Below, piece after piece: positions 1 to 4,008 of a stretch of DNA of 4,008 nt. Numbering within the stretch: the stretch's first letter is position 1; the number at the start of each line of letters is the position of its first letter. Location of the stretch: IMG/VR virus record IMGVR_UViG_2778261301_000010; one strand, written 5' to 3'. The position numbers and the translations under genes are program-made. This stretch comes from a virus (taxonomy: Duplodnaviria > Heunggongvirae > Uroviricota > Caudoviricetes). The notes under the pieces are model-generated. The model was not told where the DNA came from. It was given only the letters and a program-made list of their open reading frames with translations, and did not search any database.

Positions 1-163
1 CCTCCTCACGGGGGACAGAAAGCGTCACGCTGTACGTTTTCAGGTTGGCATTCAGCCCGGCAGGCGCTCGCTGGGAACAGCCATCACCAAAGCGCACCTT
101 TCTTACAGAAGGGGCCGAAGCCACATCCATACCGGGTTTCACTTTCCAGCGGAAGGTTTTCAT
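1..163 (-). CDS. M: Minor tail protein M, N-terminal 54 codons only (3' end lies beyond the left edge of the window)
   Basis: Reverse complement of 1..163 reads ATG AAA ACC TTC CGC TGG AAA GTG AAA CCC GGT ATG GAT..., giving MKTFRWKVKPGMDVASAPSVRKVRFGDGCSQRAPAGLNANLKTYSVTLSVPREE. This matches the recalled N-terminus of lambda gpM almost residue for residue. The ATG (163..161) overlaps the H stop TGA (162..160) as ATGA, and GGAGG lies 6 nt upstream (170..174). Position directly downstream of the tape measure gene fits lambda synteny. Confidence 0.85.
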   Translation of the reverse strand, partial: MKTFRWKVKPGMDVASAPSVRKVRFGDGCSQRAPAGLNANLKTYSVTLSVPREE

Positions 164-3100
164 CGTCCACCTCCGGAGAACAGACCACCATCACGGGACT
201 GCTGTTGCATAAAGTCCGCTGCTGCTTTTTTCCCGAGGTCATAAACCACCTTCAGGGCAGCCGGACCTATCTGCCCGTTCGTGCCATCGTTATTGATCTC
301 GATGTTGTACTGCGGGGCAAACATCGCCATACCTGAACCACCAATATCCGCCACAACCCCCAGCTTACCGTCAGCACCACGACGCAGAGGCAGAATGGCT
401 TCAGGCCCAGCTTCCCCCATCACACCTGCACCTTTTGCAAAAGCAAAAAACGTCGGACGGTTAACCACCGTGCCACTGTAGCGACTCAAATCAGCAGACT
501 GATAAACACCACCATCAGCATTGGGCGTCACACTGGCAGTTGCTGCACTCCCCCAGCCAAACGCCGAACCAATCCCCTTAACTGCCTGCATCATGGACAT
601 CTGGGCCATGATTTTTGCCAGATCAGAAAGGAGCGAGGCGGTAAAAGATTTGAAGTTCAGTTTTCCGGTAGTACAGAACGTTGCCAGTGCATTACCTGCA
701 CTGTTAAATGCCGCTGTAAGCATCTGCTCAGCAGTGCCTGCCGCATTATCCGCATCTGCCGTGAAATTCTGAAACGCCCGCATAGCACCGTTTTTCCAGT
801 TACCCTGAGCAATTTCAAGCTGTTGCCAGTAACGGCGATTCTCATTCAGTTGTCGGTTCAGGCTCTCCGTCAGCGCCTGCTCGGCCTTTCTGTAGTCATC
901 CGTGTTATATGTCCCTTTCTGCTCACTATCCCGCCTCAACTGCTCCAGCTGTTGCTGGTATTTCTGGCGAAGACTCAGTTGTACCTGATATCGCTGCCGC
1001 TGCTGATCACCCATACCCACCGTGGCGATATCCAGGTCATGTTGCTGACGCTGAGCGCGCTCTTCTTCAGCCAGTTGACTGGTCAGCTGAATTGTTTTTT
1101 TCTTCAGATCGTTGAGTGCCGTCTGTTTCTGAAGCTCCTGCTGTTTTACATCCAGCAGCGTCAGTGCCTGAATCAGTTCATCTTTACGGGCCAGCACACT
1201 CTTTTCATCTGCCGTCAGTTTTTTCCCGTCCAGATCGCTGATGCGCTGCTGCAGAGCCAGAAGCTGTTTATGCGCTTCTGTCATCCTGTCAGTGGCAATG
1301 CCTGCTGACTGTCTTGCAGCAGCAATCTGTCCTTCCACCTGTGCCTGTTGCTGGCTGTACTGCAGCAATAACCGGGTGGCCTCATCATTACGGGTTTCAC
1401 GTGTTTTTTTCTTACCGGATGCCAGGGCTTTCTCGTAACGTTCATTTTCACGTTGTATCGCCGCATCCCTGACAGCCTGATCGGCGTACTGCATGGCATT
1501 AATACGCGCAATTTCACGCTGATGTCGTGCAGCTTCCGTTTCATTCATCCGGTTCAGTGCAGCATTTTCAGCATTACGGCGTTTCTGTTGCTCCTGATAA
1601 TTCCGCTCTGCCTGCTCTTTTGCATCCTGCAAATCCTTCTGGCGTTTTTTCTCCTGAAGATCGTTAAGACGCTGCTGATCGTATTCAACCTGAGAAGATG
1701 ATGCCGTCCAGGGGAGTCTTTTCGCCCGCGACACTTTCTCCTGCAAAGTGGCAATCTGCGCATCCAGCGAATCTTCACGACCAATATTCATGGCCGCATC
1801 CCAGAACTGCTTCCACCAGTCAGACAAGGTTTGCAGCGTACTACCCAGCGCATTGAGGTTATTATCAATATCCGCAGTACGCCGACCGGTTTCCTCTGCC
1901 AGTGCAGACATGGCTATCCGTGCCGCATCACTGGACCGCCCCTGCTCTCCAAGGACGCGTATCTGCTCAAGCTGAGTGGCAGTAAGAAAATGCAGCTCAT
2001 TGTCCAGAGACTTCGCGGCATTTACAGGATCATCCTTCAGCCGCTTAAACTGATTTATGGTATCGCTGACCGACTGGCCAACCGATCGCTCCATCTGTGC
2101 GGCAGCTCTCGCCACCATACCGATATCGTTTCCACGAAATGCACCACTCCCCACCACCTGAGCCAGCGCACCGGCTGCAGCATGTTGCGTGATACCATTC
2201 CCGGAAATAGCACGACTGAGCGTCCACAGCTGCCCGGCAGTGACTCCGGCATAATGCCCCGTCAGCGACAGCTGGCGGTTAAATTCTTCCCCCTCCTTCT
2301 GACCGTCATACCAGGCTTTACCCAGACCATAGACAGCCGCGGCAATACCACCAATAACCCCGCCCAGCATCATGCCTTTCGGTGACATCAATGTGTCTAT
2401 CCACCCGGCACGGTTAGCCAGCGTTATTCCGGATCCCCTCAGCGCACCTAAATTTCCGCGGGCCAGTTCACCTATCAGAACGCCTATCTCCTGACGGGCC
2501 GCTGCACTTTTCAGACCCAGCGAATGCGTGGCTTTTCCTGCCTGCTCCATTTTGCGGATATACACTTCTGCAGCACTGCTTACCCCCAGCTGGGCAGCCT
2601 TAGCACGAAGCAACTCAGAAGAAGAAAGATTCTGGCGGGTTGCCTGCTCTTTAAGCTGACGGATAAACGCCACTTTCTGTCGGGTAGCCTCTTCCTCAGC
2701 CTGTGTAAGAACACGGGTTTTCGCCGTAACCTCAGAAATCAGCGCCAGATAATCCTGCTGACCAATCCCGCCACTGTTTCTGGCCTGTCGGATCTGCTGC
2801 TGAATACGCTGTAATTCCTGCAGCCCCGCACTGGCCTGTTTCACACTGTCAATCTGACGATAAAACGCAGCAGCCGCTTTATCCTGAGCCTCCGCCAGAG
2901 CCATGGCCTGCGCCTGTTCCTCGCGCATTTTCTGGCTCAGCGCCTCCATGCGCTGGCGGGTTTTCTCCACCTCGCGGGCCATGCGTTCATGAGCCTGTGC
3001 GTTCTTCTCCACCGTCTGCGCATGGACGGATGCGGCTGTTGCAGCCGAAGACGCCGCCTGCGTTGTCTGCCGGGCGGCCTGAGTCTGACGCTCCATAAAA

Positions 3101-3234
3101 CGCTGCATACGGGCAGAAGACCGTTCTGCATCGCTGGCTGCACCATTCAGAAGGTTTTTGATACGGGGGATTTCATTTTTAAACTCTGCCGCATCAATCC
3201 CCAAATCAATGACCAGGTTGGCTATCTGGTCCAT
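160..3234 (-). CDS. H: Tail tape measure protein, lambda gpH family (1024 aa from the ATG at 3234)
   Basis: One uninterrupted 3.1 kb minus-strand ORF. The C-terminus INNDGTNGQIGPAALKVVYDLGKK...RDGGLFSGGGR matches the recalled lambda gpH C-terminus (INNDGTNGQIGPAALKAVYDMARK...RDGGLFSGGGR). The N-terminus MDQIANLVIDLGIDAAEF aligns with lambda MAEPVGDLVVDLSLDAARF. The body is long, Q/A/R/E-rich and coiled-coil-like with a Gly/Ala-rich hydrophobic segment, as expected for a tape measure protein. The ORF track starts at 3264, but that codon is TTG; the ATG at 3234..3232 has GGAGG 8 nt upstream and aligns with the lambda start, so it is preferred. Confidence 0.9.
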   Translation of the reverse strand: MDQIANLVIDLGIDAAEFKNEIPRIKNLLNGAASDAERSSARMQRFMERQTQAARQTTQAASSAATAASVHAQTVEKNAQAHERMAREVEKTRQRMEALSQKMREEQAQAMALAEAQDKAAAAFYRQIDSVKQASAGLQELQRIQQQIRQARNSGGIGQQDYLALISEVTAKTRVLTQAEEEATRQKVAFIRQLKEQATRQNLSSSELLRAKAAQLGVSSAAEVYIRKMEQAGKATHSLGLKSAAARQEIGVLIGELARGNLGALRGSGITLANRAGWIDTLMSPKGMMLGGVIGGIAAAVYGLGKAWYDGQKEGEEFNRQLSLTGHYAGVTAGQLWTLSRAISGNGITQHAAAGALAQVVGSGAFRGNDIGMVARAAAQMERSVGQSVSDTINQFKRLKDDPVNAAKSLDNELHFLTATQLEQIRVLGEQGRSSDAARIAMSALAEETGRRTADIDNNLNALGSTLQTLSDWWKQFWDAAMNIGREDSLDAQIATLQEKVSRAKRLPWTASSSQVEYDQQRLNDLQEKKRQKDLQDAKEQAERNYQEQQKRRNAENAALNRMNETEAARHQREIARINAMQYADQAVRDAAIQRENERYEKALASGKKKTRETRNDEATRLLLQYSQQQAQVEGQIAAARQSAGIATDRMTEAHKQLLALQQRISDLDGKKLTADEKSVLARKDELIQALTLLDVKQQELQKQTALNDLKKKTIQLTSQLAEEERAQRQQHDLDIATVGMGDQQRQRYQVQLSLRQKYQQQLEQLRRDSEQKGTYNTDDYRKAEQALTESLNRQLNENRRYWQQLEIAQGNWKNGAMRAFQNFTADADNAAGTAEQMLTAAFNSAGNALATFCTTGKLNFKSFTASLLSDLAKIMAQMSMMQAVKGIGSAFGWGSAATASVTPNADGGVYQSADLSRYSGTVVNRPTFFAFAKGAGVMGEAGPEAILPLRRGADGKLGVVADIGGSGMAMFAPQYNIEINNDGTNGQIGPAALKVVYDLGKKAAADFMQQQSRDGGLFSGGGR
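170..174 (-). promoter_or_regulatory. Shine-Dalgarno (GGAGG) for M, embedded in the last codons of H
   Basis: Minus-strand sequence TTC TCC GGA GGT GGA CGA TGA (FSGGGR*) contains GGAGG 6 nt upstream of the M ATG; the M start overlaps the H stop (ATGA). Confidence 0.7.
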
Positions 3235-3963
3235 AACGCACACCTCCGGAAATACCTTCCCCAAGATGCATCAGTTCTTCGTCCGTTCGCTCCGGTATCC
3301 CGTTCTCTTCCGGTAAAAGGCTGAAATCAGCCACCGCAGCATCACTGCTGCCGGACACCATTCTCACGATCAATGCCTTCAGCGAGGCAAACTGCGCATC
3401 CATCCACACATCACTGAAGCTCTGCATCCGGAAATAATCGCCCCACTCACCAAGCTCAGTGGCCGACATTTCCGACAGCATCCGCCGCCAGTCTGCCCGC
3501 CGGAACTCCCGGGCAAGCCGCATGACAAACTGCATTTCCCGCGTCAGGACTTTTCCGGCGTCAGCACCTCATGCTCCAAATCCCCGGCATTCTCAATGGC
3601 TCCCATACCGCTCAGCGACAGAACCATCTCCGCCCCCGCACCCAGGGCATCATACGACCATGTTGTAATTACGGATGCGCAAAGCGTCTCAACATCCTGA
3701 GACTGTTCCGCATTCCACAGTGAGCGGGAAACCAGCCAGGCATTGATATCCATCCCCATCCGCAGAAAAGCAATCTGTCGTTCAGCCTCCGGCAGTTCTC
3801 CCTCTTCGGCATCAAACTTTGCCGTTCGCTGCTGAACAAACGCCAGATATTCAATTCTCTGCAGCCCGGACAGCTCACTGAGCACCACGGACTGCTTTTC
3901 ATAATTAAACGTGCCCTGTTTCAGAAACATCGTAAGCGTAAACTGACCGCCGTATGTAGCCAT
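3206..3963 (-). CDS. T: Tail assembly chaperone G-T fusion (gpGT), made by programmed -1 ribosomal frameshift near 3550..3556; T-frame part is 3206..3556; predicted product about 252 aa
   Basis: The T reading frame is open from a T-frame TGA at 3569..3571 down to the TGA at 3206..3208. It is offset by -1 from G and overlaps G's last 9 codons. The heptamer GGAAAAG sits in this overlap (zero frame CCG GAA AAG TCC TGA; -1 frame GGA AAA GTC CTG). Predicted junction: ...EVLTPEK / VLTREMQFVMRLAREF... The 3' end overlaps the H start by 29 nt. This arrangement is the conserved G/GT recoding unit of long-tailed phages. Confidence 0.8.
3243..3247 (-). promoter_or_regulatory. Shine-Dalgarno (GGAGG) for the tape measure gene, embedded in the T-frame coding sequence
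   Basis: Minus-strand sequence TCCGGAGGTGTGCGTT-ATG: GGAGG with an 8-nt spacer to the ATG at 3234. In the T frame the same bases encode Ser-Gly-Gly. Confidence 0.7.
3544..3963 (-). CDS. G: Tail assembly chaperone G (lambda gpG family), 139 aa from the first ATG
   Basis: ORF of 139 codons immediately upstream of the tape measure gene. The internal stretch MFLKQGTF...VVLSELSGLQRIEYLAF resembles the recalled lambda gpG N-terminus (MFLKTESFEHNGVTVTLSELSALQRIEHLAL). It ends 2 codons after a slip site from which a -1 frame continues, the defining G/GT architecture. The true start could be the ATG at 3930..3928, which is where the lambda-like sequence begins; neither candidate has a clear SD. Confidence 0.85.
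   Translation of the reverse strand: MATYGGQFTLTMFLKQGTFNYEKQSVVLSELSGLQRIEYLAFVQQRTAKFDAEEGELPEAERQIAFLRMGMDINAWLVSRSLWNAEQSQDVETLCASVITTWSYDALGAGAEMVLSLSGMGAIENAGDLEHEVLTPEKS
3550..3556 (-). other. Putative -1 frameshift slippery heptamer GGAAAAG (recoding signal for G-T)
   Basis: Plus strand 3550..3556 is cttttcc, reverse complement GGAAAAG. The A-site codon AAG (Lys) can re-pair on AAA after a -1 slip. It is the only slippery motif within the 22-nt window where both the G and T frames are open (3547..3568). Confidence 0.6.
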
Positions 3964-3981
3964 CAGACGAGAATTGGTAAC

Positions 3982-4008
3982 TTAGACGCCCATCTGATAT
4001 AGACGGAC
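3982..4008 (-). CDS. Probable 3' end of the upstream late gene (by synteny the major tail protein, gpV-like); frame and exact stop uncertain
   Basis: By lambda synteny the gene upstream of G is V, and the operon here has no gaps. Two frames stay open to the right edge: one ends at TAA 3982..3984 (tail ...VRLYQMGV*, 18-nt gap to the G ATG), the other ends at TGA 3963..3965 overlapping the G ATG as TGATG (tail ...SKLPILV*). Forty-five bases are too few to choose or to confirm identity. Confidence 0.3.
   Translation of the reverse strand, partial: VRLYQMGV

What the first reader, a model, noticed from the sequence alone, without database searches (positions are those of the whole stretch)
3544..3571. 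G-T frameshift site uses GGAAAAG, a one-base variant of the lambda heptamer, only two codons before the G stop
Lambda makes gpGT by a -1 slip at G GGA AAG. Here the only slippery motif in the G/T overlap is G GAA AAG. The A-site Lys slip (AAG to AAA) is preserved, but the P-site tRNA-Glu would have to re-pair GAA onto GGA with a middle-position mismatch. That implies either an A-site-dominated slip or lower efficiency, which would change the G:GT ratio important for tail assembly. The site is also unusually close to the G stop, leaving a 22-nt window for the shift. A GC-rich hairpin candidate lies about 35 to 55 nt downstream, probably too far to stimulate slipping.
Basis: partly seen in the sequence, partly recalled or inferred. 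Interest (0 to 1): 0.45.

Follow-up and report, generated by a model that had tools for sequence, protein, structure and literature searches.

The report
Phage tail G/GT frameshift site GGAAAAG
This is the ordinary ribosomal frameshift site that lets a lambda-like prophage make a small amount of a fused tail-assembly protein, and its GGAAAAG sequence is the commonest version in this phage family, not an odd variant of lambda's.

Summary
On the minus strand, gene G (PF06894) ends at TGA 3546..3544. The -1 frame carrying the T domain (PF06223) is open from 3568. The only shift-prone motif in the 22-nt overlap is G GAA AAG (3556..3550).

The interpretation needs correcting:
- GGAAAAG sits at the homologous position in 58 of 67 distinct junctions examined, from more than 20 Enterobacterales genera. 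It is also in phages N15, HK97, phi80, Gifsy-2 and mEp043.
- The N15 GenBank record already annotates exactly these seven bases as the slippery sequence.
- On a rough tree, lambda's GGGAAAG looks derived.
- The base at heptamer position 1 is G in 26/26 diverged relatives, across six different preceding codons, while neighbouring third positions vary freely. This favours a true two-tRNA slip (tRNA-Glu re-pairing GAA to GGA with a G·U pair) over an A-site-only slip.
- The distance to the G stop is 0, 1 or 5 codons across the family, so it is not unusual here.
- I found no conserved downstream structure or upstream SD-like stimulator.
- The ATG at 3535 is not conserved as a start.

Verdict: already known and ordinary. 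Frameshift efficiency is unmeasured.

The parts
3544..3930 (-). Gene G, the tail assembly chaperone: native ATG 3930..3928, stop TGA 3546..3544, 128 aa.
   Evidence: PF06894 E 1.7e-39. Homology to the mEp460, cdtI and Ayreon phages and to E. coli prophages begins at 3931. Relatives annotate the start at the MFLK... ATG.
3550..3556 (-). Slippery heptamer G GAA AAG. In the 0 frame the P site holds GAA (Glu) and the A site AAG (Lys). In the -1 frame they become GGA and AAA.
   Evidence: The seven bases are invariant in 58 of 67 distinct junctions and are the only fully invariant block in the first 30 columns after the junction in 27 aligned relatives. The same seven bases are annotated as the slippery sequence in N15.
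3547..3568 (-). The 22-nt G/T overlap, in which a -1 shift yields an open T frame. It is bounded by the T-frame stop TGA 3571..3569 and the G stop 3546..3544.
3206..3550 (-). T-frame part of the predicted GT fusion: first new codon GTC 3550..3548 (Val), stop TGA 3208..3206. Sequence VLTREMQFVMRLAREF...GGVRYGPDSQPGH.
   Evidence: PF06223 E 4.4e-15. T-frame residues upstream of any start codon are conserved (K-[VA]-x(6)-F-[VAS]-x(2)-LAREF, with E common at the sixth residue).
3533..3535 (-). ATG used by gene callers as the start of a stand-alone T protein (109 aa). It is most likely an internal Met codon of GT.
   Evidence: An ATG at this position occurs only in the E. coli subfamily and Edwardsiella. 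Seventeen of 35 representatives have no ATG, GTG or TTG between the slip site and the LAREF motif. The best anti-SD pairing is only -4.3 kcal/mol, at spacing 0.
3565..3570 (-). SD-like GAGGTG 8 nt 5' of the heptamer. It is a possible allele-specific stimulator and is not conserved.
   Evidence: Pairing to the 16S 3' end is -9.2 kcal/mol. About 40% of near-identical relatives carry GAGGCG instead. N15 and mEp043 have nothing comparable.
160..3234 (-). Tape measure gene H (1024 aa), immediately downstream. Its start overlaps the end of T by 29 nt and has a strong SD, GGAGGTGT.
   Evidence: PF06791, PF24622 and PF09718; SD -13.1 kcal/mol at spacing 5; gene calls.
3932..4008 (+). Left end of an IS66-family (ISEc23-like) insertion sequence, GTAAGCGTAAACTG..., abutting the G start codon. 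It is not part of the frameshift cassette, but it replaces G's ribosome-binding site.
   Evidence: a multi-copy element on chromosomes and plasmids; the same sequence precedes IS66 tnpA, tnpB and the ISEc23-family transposase; alignment shows the junction.

Best explanation
This is the programmed -1 ribosomal frameshift site of a lambda-like tail-assembly chaperone gene pair, G/GT, in an mEp460/cdtI-type E. coli prophage.

Proposed mechanism:
1. Most ribosomes read G to its stop at 3546..3544 and make gpG (128 aa).
2. A small fraction slip back one base on G GAA AAG (3556..3550).
3. The A-site tRNA-Lys moves from AAG to AAA, a cognate pairing.
4. The P-site tRNA-Glu moves from GAA to GGA. It keeps Watson-Crick pairs at codon positions 1 and 3 and forms a G·U pair at position 2.
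5. Translation continues in the T frame to 3208..3206, giving a GT fusion with junction ...EVLTPEK-VLTREM....

Shown here: the anatomy, the homology, conservation of all seven bases including position 1, the lack of a conserved independent T start, and the lack of a conserved RNA stimulator.

Inferred, not shown: that slippage occurs, its efficiency, and the G·U re-pairing geometry. By analogy with lambda, gpG coats the tape measure protein and the T domain of GT recruits the major tail protein, so the G:GT ratio is set by slip efficiency.

In this particular copy an IS66-family insertion has removed G's ribosome-binding site, so the cassette may no longer be expressed normally.
For: - Gene order G, T (-1 frame), H, with Pfam matches PF06894, PF06223 and tape-measure domains.
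- The major tail gene V lies upstream of G in intact relatives.
- The heptamer lies at a fixed distance from the conserved T-domain motif in all 137 loci analysed.
- GGAAAAG occurs in 58 of 67 distinct junctions, including more than 20 genera at 40-66% T-protein identity. It is also in phi80, Gifsy-2 and mEp043, HK97 and N15, whose record labels it 'slippery sequence for -1 translational frameshift'.
- Position 1 is G in 26/26 diverged sequences over the codons CCG, GCG, CTG, TTG, ACG and GTG. Third positions of codons -2, -3, -4, -6 and -7 use all four bases. The product of per-gene G3 frequencies is 1e-13.
- Where the heptamer differs, it changes to another shift-prone motif (GGGAAAG, AAAAAAG, or GGCAAAA/GGGAAAA followed directly by TAG), never to a non-slippery sequence.
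- Seventeen of 35 representatives have no start codon in the T frame before the conserved LAREF motif, yet residues upstream of it are conserved.
- A_AAG is the most shift-prone A-site tetramer in E. coli (Sharma 2014, PMC4066793).
- G_GA variants of the X_XX part are recognised in other systems (Atkins 2016, PMC5009743).
Against: - No experiment on this sequence was found.
- A_AAG alone gives about 0.15% without a stimulator, and no conserved stimulator was found. The level reached in vivo is therefore unknown.
- Invariance of G at position 1 could partly reflect shared ancestry or a 5'-context effect rather than tRNA-Glu re-pairing.
- In this copy the native G ribosome-binding site is lost to the IS insertion.
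Confidence: 0.8

Rival explanations
1. Single-tRNA slippage. Only the A-site tRNA-Lys slips on A_AAG (an NNA_AAG hexanucleotide-type site). The P-site tRNA-Glu does not re-pair, and efficiency is well below lambda's roughly 4%.
For: [quoted passage not shown] NNA_AAG hexamer sites such as CGA_AAG are used naturally (Atkins 2016). A_AAG is the top tetramer.
Against: The base 5' of the hexamer is G in 26/26 diverged relatives across six codons, while adjacent synonymous sites vary. A pure hexamer model does not predict this. Tetramer and hexamer sites need a strong stimulator to reach percent levels (0.15% without, 5.6% with the IS3 pseudoknot), and none is conserved here.
Confidence: 0.15
2. 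T is translated on its own from the ATG at 3535, as RefSeq and most phage records annotate it, without fusion to G.
For: Gene callers and PGAP annotate a 109-aa 'phage tail assembly protein T' from this ATG.
Against: The ATG is confined to one subfamily, and 17 of 35 representatives have no start codon before the conserved domain. Anti-SD pairing is weak (-4.3 kcal/mol) and at spacing 0. T-frame residues between the heptamer and this ATG are conserved. The heptamer itself is invariant. HK97, phage 21 and N15 records annotate the frameshift.
Confidence: 0.03
3. The site in this copy is a relic. The cassette is intact in sequence but is no longer expressed at a working level, because an IS66-family element sits 1 nt upstream of the G start codon and has removed the SD. 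This qualifies the best explanation rather than excluding it.
For: Homology to intact prophages ends at 3931 and the IS left end starts at 3932. The native GGAG SD seen in strain E189 is replaced, and the best anti-SD pairing upstream of ATG 3930 is -2.9 kcal/mol.
Against: The G, T and H reading frames are all intact and 99% identical to those of functional phages. Translation from IS-derived read-through or from the in-frame ATG 3963 cannot be excluded. Only 77 nt of the IS are in the contig.
Confidence: 0.4

Closest known systems
Bacteriophage lambda G/GT -1 programmed frameshift (Levin, Hendrix and Casjens 1993; Xu, Hendrix and Duda 2004, 2013, 2014; cited from Atkins 2016, PMC5009743)
   Same: Same gene order (V-G-T-H), same Pfam families, and the same codon position for the slip: the Lys codon followed by Val/Ala-x(6)-Phe-...-LARE. 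The A-site shift is the same, AAG to AAA by tRNA-Lys. Neither has a required downstream structure that is evident.
   Different: Heptamer position 3 is A, not G. The P-site tRNA is therefore tRNA-Glu re-pairing GAA to GGA (G·U at the middle position), not tRNA-Gly re-pairing GGA to GGG (non-Watson-Crick at the wobble position). The G stop is 1 codon after the heptamer, against 5 in lambda. T-domain identity is only about 38%.
Phage N15 genes 14/15 (NC_001901; misc_feature 10027..10033, 'slippery sequence for -1 translational frameshift')
   Same: Identical heptamer GGAAAAG at the homologous position in homologous genes.
   Different: The preceding codon is GCG, not CCG. The G stop is 5 codons downstream. 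N15 has no SD-like element upstream. The T domain groups with the phi80/N15 branch.
Phages mEp460, cdtI and Ayreon, and the E. coli prophages of this type
   Same: The G-T-H DNA is 98-99.4% identical, with the same heptamer and the same 22-nt overlap. At least 80% of the window is present in 1817 of 5426 complete E. coli genomes.
   Different: Those records annotate G and T as separate genes with no slippage join. They keep the V-G intergenic region and the G SD, which the IS replaces here.
NNA_AAG hexanucleotide and A_AAG tetranucleotide -1 sites (Licznar 2003, via Atkins 2016; Sharma 2014)
   Same: A-site AAG to AAA re-pairing by the single E. coli tRNA-Lys, with an NNA codon in the P site.
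   Different: Here the base 5' of the hexamer is also conserved, and no strong stimulator accompanies the site.
E. coli dnaX A_AAA_AAG site with an upstream SD-like element and a downstream hairpin
   Same: AAG in the A site. In this allele an SD-like GAGGUG lies 8 nt upstream, within the 6-17 nt range reported as stimulatory.
   Different: The SD-like element is polymorphic and not conserved. There is no hairpin. The expected efficiency is far below dnaX levels.

Membership tests
Lambda-type G/GT tail assembly chaperone frameshift cassette | Two overlapping ORFs located between the major tail protein gene and the tape measure gene. | tested here: met
   G and T lie immediately upstream of H. 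V lies upstream of G in intact relatives. In this contig the upstream side is an IS end.
Lambda-type G/GT tail assembly chaperone frameshift cassette | The upstream ORF is homologous to gpG and the downstream ORF to gpT. | tested here: met
   PF06894 E 1.7e-39 and PF06223 E 4.4e-15.
Lambda-type G/GT tail assembly chaperone frameshift cassette | The downstream ORF is in the -1 frame and lacks a conserved start of its own. | tested here: met
   The frame offset is -1. Seventeen of 35 representatives have no start codon before the conserved motif. ATG 3535 has no usable SD.
Lambda-type G/GT tail assembly chaperone frameshift cassette | A conserved shift-prone heptamer in the overlap, in register with the upstream frame. 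| tested here: met
   G_GAA_AAG is in register at 3556..3550. It is invariant in 58 of 67 distinct junctions, and in the other nine it is replaced only by other slippery motifs.
Lambda-type G/GT tail assembly chaperone frameshift cassette | Production of a GT fusion protein at a few percent of G. | not testable with these tools
   Needs a reporter assay or mass spectrometry. No measurement for GGAAAAG in a G/T context was found.
Canonical X_XXY_YYZ tandem-slippage heptamer | XXX identical, so that the P-site tRNA re-pairs with at most a wobble-position change. | tested here: not met
   X_XX is G_GA. Re-pairing GAA to GGA puts G opposite U35 at the middle position (sequence). G_GA variants are listed as known intermediates in Atkins 2016.
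Canonical X_XXY_YYZ tandem-slippage heptamer | YYZ allows cognate A-site re-pairing (A_AAG in E. coli). | tested here: met
   AAG to AAA. A_AAG is the top tetramer in E. coli.
NNA_AAG hexanucleotide (single-tRNA) slip sites | Only the hexamer matters, so the base 5' of the NNA codon is free to vary. | tested here: not met
   That base is G in 26/26 diverged sequences across six codons, while neighbouring third positions vary.
NNA_AAG hexanucleotide (single-tRNA) slip sites | An accompanying strong 3' stimulator (pseudoknot or hairpin), needed for percent-level shifting. | tested here: not met
   Fold z-scores are -0.55 and +0.38. The consensus fold of 27 relatives is -1.48 kcal/mol with no covariation.
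dnaX-type stimulated site | A conserved SD-like sequence 6-17 nt upstream of the motif. | tested here: inconclusive
   GAGGUG is present 8 nt upstream in this allele (-9.2 kcal/mol). About 40% of closest relatives have GAGGCG, and several family members have nothing comparable.

The most novel reading that the evidence does not exclude
GGAAAAG may be the selected, probably ancestral G/GT heptamer of enterobacterial lambda-like phages, not a degraded lambda site. It would work by a genuine two-tRNA slip with a G·U pair at the middle position of the P-site codon. Both slipping tRNAs, Glu and Lys, carry mnm5s2U34. The G:GT ratio of these very common prophages would then depend on the host's 2-thiouridine (Tus/MnmA) pathway through both tRNAs, and might be set differently from lambda's 30:1. 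If so, the sequence used by ribosome-kinetics studies as a low-slippage control would be a natural programmed site.
Probability: 0.3. Interest if true: 0.45.

Novelty: already known. Interest (0 to 1): 0.2.

Why it matters
The finding matters mainly for annotation and for choosing experiments.

At least 80% of this window, which carries the cassette, is present in about a third of complete E. coli genomes. RefSeq and most phage records annotate it as two separate genes rather than a G plus GT slippage pair. Searches restricted to canonical X_XXY_YYZ motifs, as in Sharma 2014, would miss it.

The comparative result gives a cheap, testable prediction: synonymous changes at heptamer position 1 should lower GT production. 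It also poses a small open question. GGAAAAG behaves as a poor slip site in vitro, and no conserved stimulator was found. How, then, does it deliver enough GT for tail assembly?

None of this changes the picture of how tail chaperone frameshifting works.

Tried and rejected
- **Downstream stimulatory structure.** I folded 50 and 110 nt 3' of the heptamer and ran RNAalifold on 27 diverged relatives. There was no significant or conserved structure, so I rejected it.
- **Upstream SD-like stimulator.** One is present in this allele, but it is polymorphic among near-identical relatives and absent in several family members. I kept it only as a possible allele-specific effect.
- **Independent T start at ATG 3535.** Rejected because it is not conserved and has no SD.
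- **Chance occurrence.** The heptamer count in the window is unremarkable on its own, so the argument rests on frame and conservation. The second copy, at 2532..2538 in H, is out of register.
- **Transcriptional slippage.** A run of four A is too short, on general knowledge. I did not test this.
- **Literature.** Full-text searches for GGAAAAG or G GAA AAG with frameshift, tail or phage terms found no paper on this heptamer in tail genes. Licznar et al. 2003, which measured all NNA_AAG motifs, is not held, so I have no in vivo value for GAA_AAG. Xu et al. 2004 was likewise not available. Which phages they confirmed experimentally is therefore not cited.
- **IMG/VR scan.** The 80 loci kept were all 100% identical in the T protein, so they added little diversity.

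Full report
**What is in the window**

All genes run on the minus strand.
- Gene G is a tail assembly chaperone (PF06894, E 1.7e-39) that ends at TGA 3546..3544.
- A -1 frame open from 3568 to the stop at 3208..3206 encodes a T domain (PF06223, E 4.4e-15).
- The tape measure gene H runs 3234..160 (PF06791, PF24622, PF09718).

The window is a complete 4008-bp contig, NOMP01000110.1 of assembly GCA_002518645.1.

**Checking the observation**

The G frame reads ...GAG GTG CTG ACG CCG GAA AAG TCC TGA. The heptamer G GAA AAG occupies 3556..3550, in X_XXY_YYZ register. No other in-frame Z_ZZN or X_XXY_YYZ motif exists in the overlap. The predicted junction is ...EVLTPEK|VLTREMQF....

The heptamer count in the window is unremarkable by itself: 2 copies against 0.66 expected. 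The other copy, at 2532..2538 in H, is out of register. The case therefore rests on position and conservation.

**A correction to the G gene**

Homology to phages mEp460, cdtI and Ayreon (98-99.4% identity) and to E. coli prophages stops at 3931. From 3932 to the contig end the sequence is the left end of an IS66-family (ISEc23-like) element, GTAAGCGTAAACTG.... This is a multi-copy element, which in strain JJ2434 directly precedes IS66 tnpA, tnpB and the transposase.

The native start is ATG 3930..3928, giving MFLKQ... and 128 aa. In the intact prophage of strain E189 the ATG is preceded by GGTGGAGAACATG, which contains an SD. Here that sequence is gone, and the best anti-SD pairing upstream is -2.9 kcal/mol. 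The same junction occurs in two ENA metagenome contigs but in none of 5426 complete E. coli genomes.

**Conservation of the heptamer**

I aligned T proteins down to about 41% identity and fetched 45 loci from one-genome-per-species contigs, plus 80 loci from IMG/VR. I also read the junctions of named phages.

Across 137 loci there are 67 distinct junction regions. The motif at the homologous position, a constant 39 nt from its first base to the LAREF motif, breaks down as follows:

| Motif | Distinct junctions | Where |
|---|---|---|
| GGAAAAG | 58 | Most lineages |
| GGGAAAG | 5 | lambda, phage 21, two Stx2a-type phages, an Edwardsiella prophage |
| GGCAAAA + TAG | 2 | Kluyvera, Ewingella |
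| GGGAAAA + TAG | 1 | Providencia rustigianii |
| AAAAAAG | 1 | VT1-Sakai |

GGAAAAG carriers include phi80, Gifsy-2 and mEp043, N15 and prophages of Citrobacter, Kosakonia, Leclercia, Rahnella, Kluyvera, Atlantibacter, Klebsiella, Enterobacter, Phytobacter, Providencia, Sodalis and others. HK97, whose T domain fell outside this motif-based set, reads CGG GAA AAG in frame at the homologous position and was examined separately.

The N15 GenBank record annotates 10027..10033, which reads GGAAAAG, as 'slippery sequence for -1 translational frameshift'. The heptamer is therefore already recognised in this gene family.

A rough NJ tree of T-frame peptides rooted on HK97 places the GGGAAAG, AAAAAAG and stop-adjacent variants inside a GGAAAAG background. 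GGAAAAG is thus probably the ancestral state and lambda's heptamer a derived one. The tree is short and unbootstrapped, so this is only an indication.

**One tRNA or two**

In 26 diverged GGAAAAG junctions, the median ungapped identity of the 60 nt upstream is 37%. The codon whose third base is heptamer position 1 is CCG, GCG, CTG, TTG, ACG or GTG, and that base is G in 26/26. Third positions of codons -2, -3, -4, -6 and -7 use all four bases. G3 in four-fold families of the same genes ranges from 0.09 to 0.55, and the product over the 26 genes is 1e-13.

Shared ancestry inflates that number. Even so, six different codons encoding five amino acids all keep the G. This is what tandem slippage predicts, because G1 pairs with C36 of tRNA-Glu in the -1 frame. 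It is not what a pure A_AAG or NNA_AAG single-tRNA model predicts. The so-called mismatch would be G opposite U35, a wobble-type pair in the P site; this geometry is inferred from general knowledge and was not tested.

Position 4 is always A and position 7 always G. This agrees with the E. coli rule that AAG to AAA re-pairing is the most shift-prone A-site event (Sharma 2014).

**Stimulators**

Folding 50 or 110 nt 3' of the heptamer gives z-scores of +0.38 and -0.55 against shuffles. The consensus fold of 27 relatives is -1.48 kcal/mol with no covarying pair.

This allele has GAGGTG 8 nt upstream (3570..3565), which pairs with the 16S 3' end at -9.2 kcal/mol. That spacing lies within the 6-17 nt range reported as stimulatory. 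However, about 40% of near-identical relatives have GAGGCG, and N15 and mEp043 have nothing comparable. I treat it as at most an allele-specific modifier.

**Distance to the stop**

The G stop follows the heptamer by 0 codons in Providencia, by 1 codon here and in Gifsy-2 and others, and by 5 codons in lambda, N15 and phi80. The short window is therefore not unusual.

**Independent T start**

An ATG at the position of 3535 occurs only in the E. coli subfamily and in Edwardsiella. Seventeen of 35 representatives have no ATG, GTG or TTG between the heptamer and the LAREF motif, yet residues in that stretch are conserved. The SD for ATG 3535 is weak and wrongly spaced.

RefSeq and several phage records nevertheless annotate T as a separate 109-aa protein. 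The HK97, phage 21 and N15 records annotate the frameshift.

**Efficiency**

I found no measurement for this heptamer in a G/T context.
- Lambda keeps the 0 frame about 96% of the time (Maynard 2012, PMC3296357), and the 30:1 ratio matters for tail assembly (Atkins 2016).
- In a reconstituted system without stimulators, AUG GAA AAG gave mainly 0-frame product and was used as the less slippery comparison to G GGA AAG (Peng 2019).
- A_AAG alone gives about 0.15% without a stimulator and 5.6% with the IS3 pseudoknot.

Lower efficiency than lambda is therefore plausible but untested.

The MnmA and MnmE modifications that tune lambda frameshifting act on tRNA-Lys, tRNA-Glu and tRNA-Gln. Both tRNAs at this site are therefore substrates. 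That this matters for the G:GT ratio is my own inference.

**Verdict**

It is, however, the common and already annotated form in this phage family, not a peculiar derivative of lambda. The comparative data favour a true heptamer with P-site participation. Novelty is nil at the level of kind. Residual interest lies in the unmeasured efficiency and the lack of an evident stimulator.

Noticed in passing
window 3932..4008 (+), junction at 3931/3932: The left end of an IS66-family (ISEc23-like) element sits 1 nt upstream of the G start codon. It replaces the V-G intergenic region and the G ribosome-binding site. The contig ends inside the IS. The same junction occurs in two ENA metagenome contigs but in none of 5426 complete E. 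coli genomes. It creates an artificial 11-codon N-terminal extension of G (ATG 3963), which gene callers accept (139 aa).
   Followed up: yes
window 3206..3535 (-); relatives L001, L002, L003: RefSeq/PGAP and the mEp460, cdtI and Ayreon records annotate T as a stand-alone gene (109 aa from ATG 3535, or shorter) with no ribosomal-slippage join. The HK97, phage 21 and N15 records annotate the frameshift. This is probably a systematic annotation gap for a cassette from a window found, at 80% coverage or more, in about a third of complete E. coli genomes.
   Followed up: partly
window 3565..3570 (-): GAGGTG (Glu-Val), an SD-like sequence, lies 8 nt 5' of the heptamer. It is polymorphic with GAGGCG (Glu-Ala) at roughly 60:40 among near-identical prophages. 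If the SD-like element stimulates slippage, the two alleles would give different G:GT ratios.
   Followed up: partly
L012, L014, L043, L027, L045 (Kluyvera, Ewingella, Providencia prophages), around locus position 1195: In some relatives the G stop codon TAG immediately follows the slip motif (GGCAAAA-TAG, GGGAAAA-TAG, GGAAAAG-TAG). This suggests a stop-adjacent variant of the same recoding site.
   Followed up: no
window 3206..3234 (-): The end of T overlaps the start of the tape measure gene H by 29 nt. The strong H SD (GGAGGTGT, -13.1 kcal/mol) is embedded in the codons of the conserved GGVRYG motif of T.
   Followed up: partly
window 2532..2538 (-): There is a second GGAAAAG inside the tape measure gene. 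It is read as GGA AAA G.., so it is out of register for a -1 tandem slip.
   Followed up: yes
L005 (JAEWTL010000010.1) and L040 (DAINBV010000046.1): MAGs labelled 'Bacillota bacterium' and 'Geobacteraceae bacterium' carry this enterobacterial prophage cassette; L005 is 100% identical in the T protein. This looks like binning contamination.
   Followed up: no
window 3920..3931 versus L140 around 3510..3522: The sequences flanking the IS66-family left end at two unrelated insertion sites are similar (TCAGAAACATC versus TTAGAAACAAA). This may reflect a target-site preference or may be coincidence.
   Followed up: no
alignment A2, column 8 (base 3' of the heptamer): The base after GGAAAAG is always a pyrimidine (T or C) in 27 diverged relatives. 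This gives Val or Ala as the first T-frame residue. It could be a protein constraint or a 3'-context effect on slippage.
   Followed up: no
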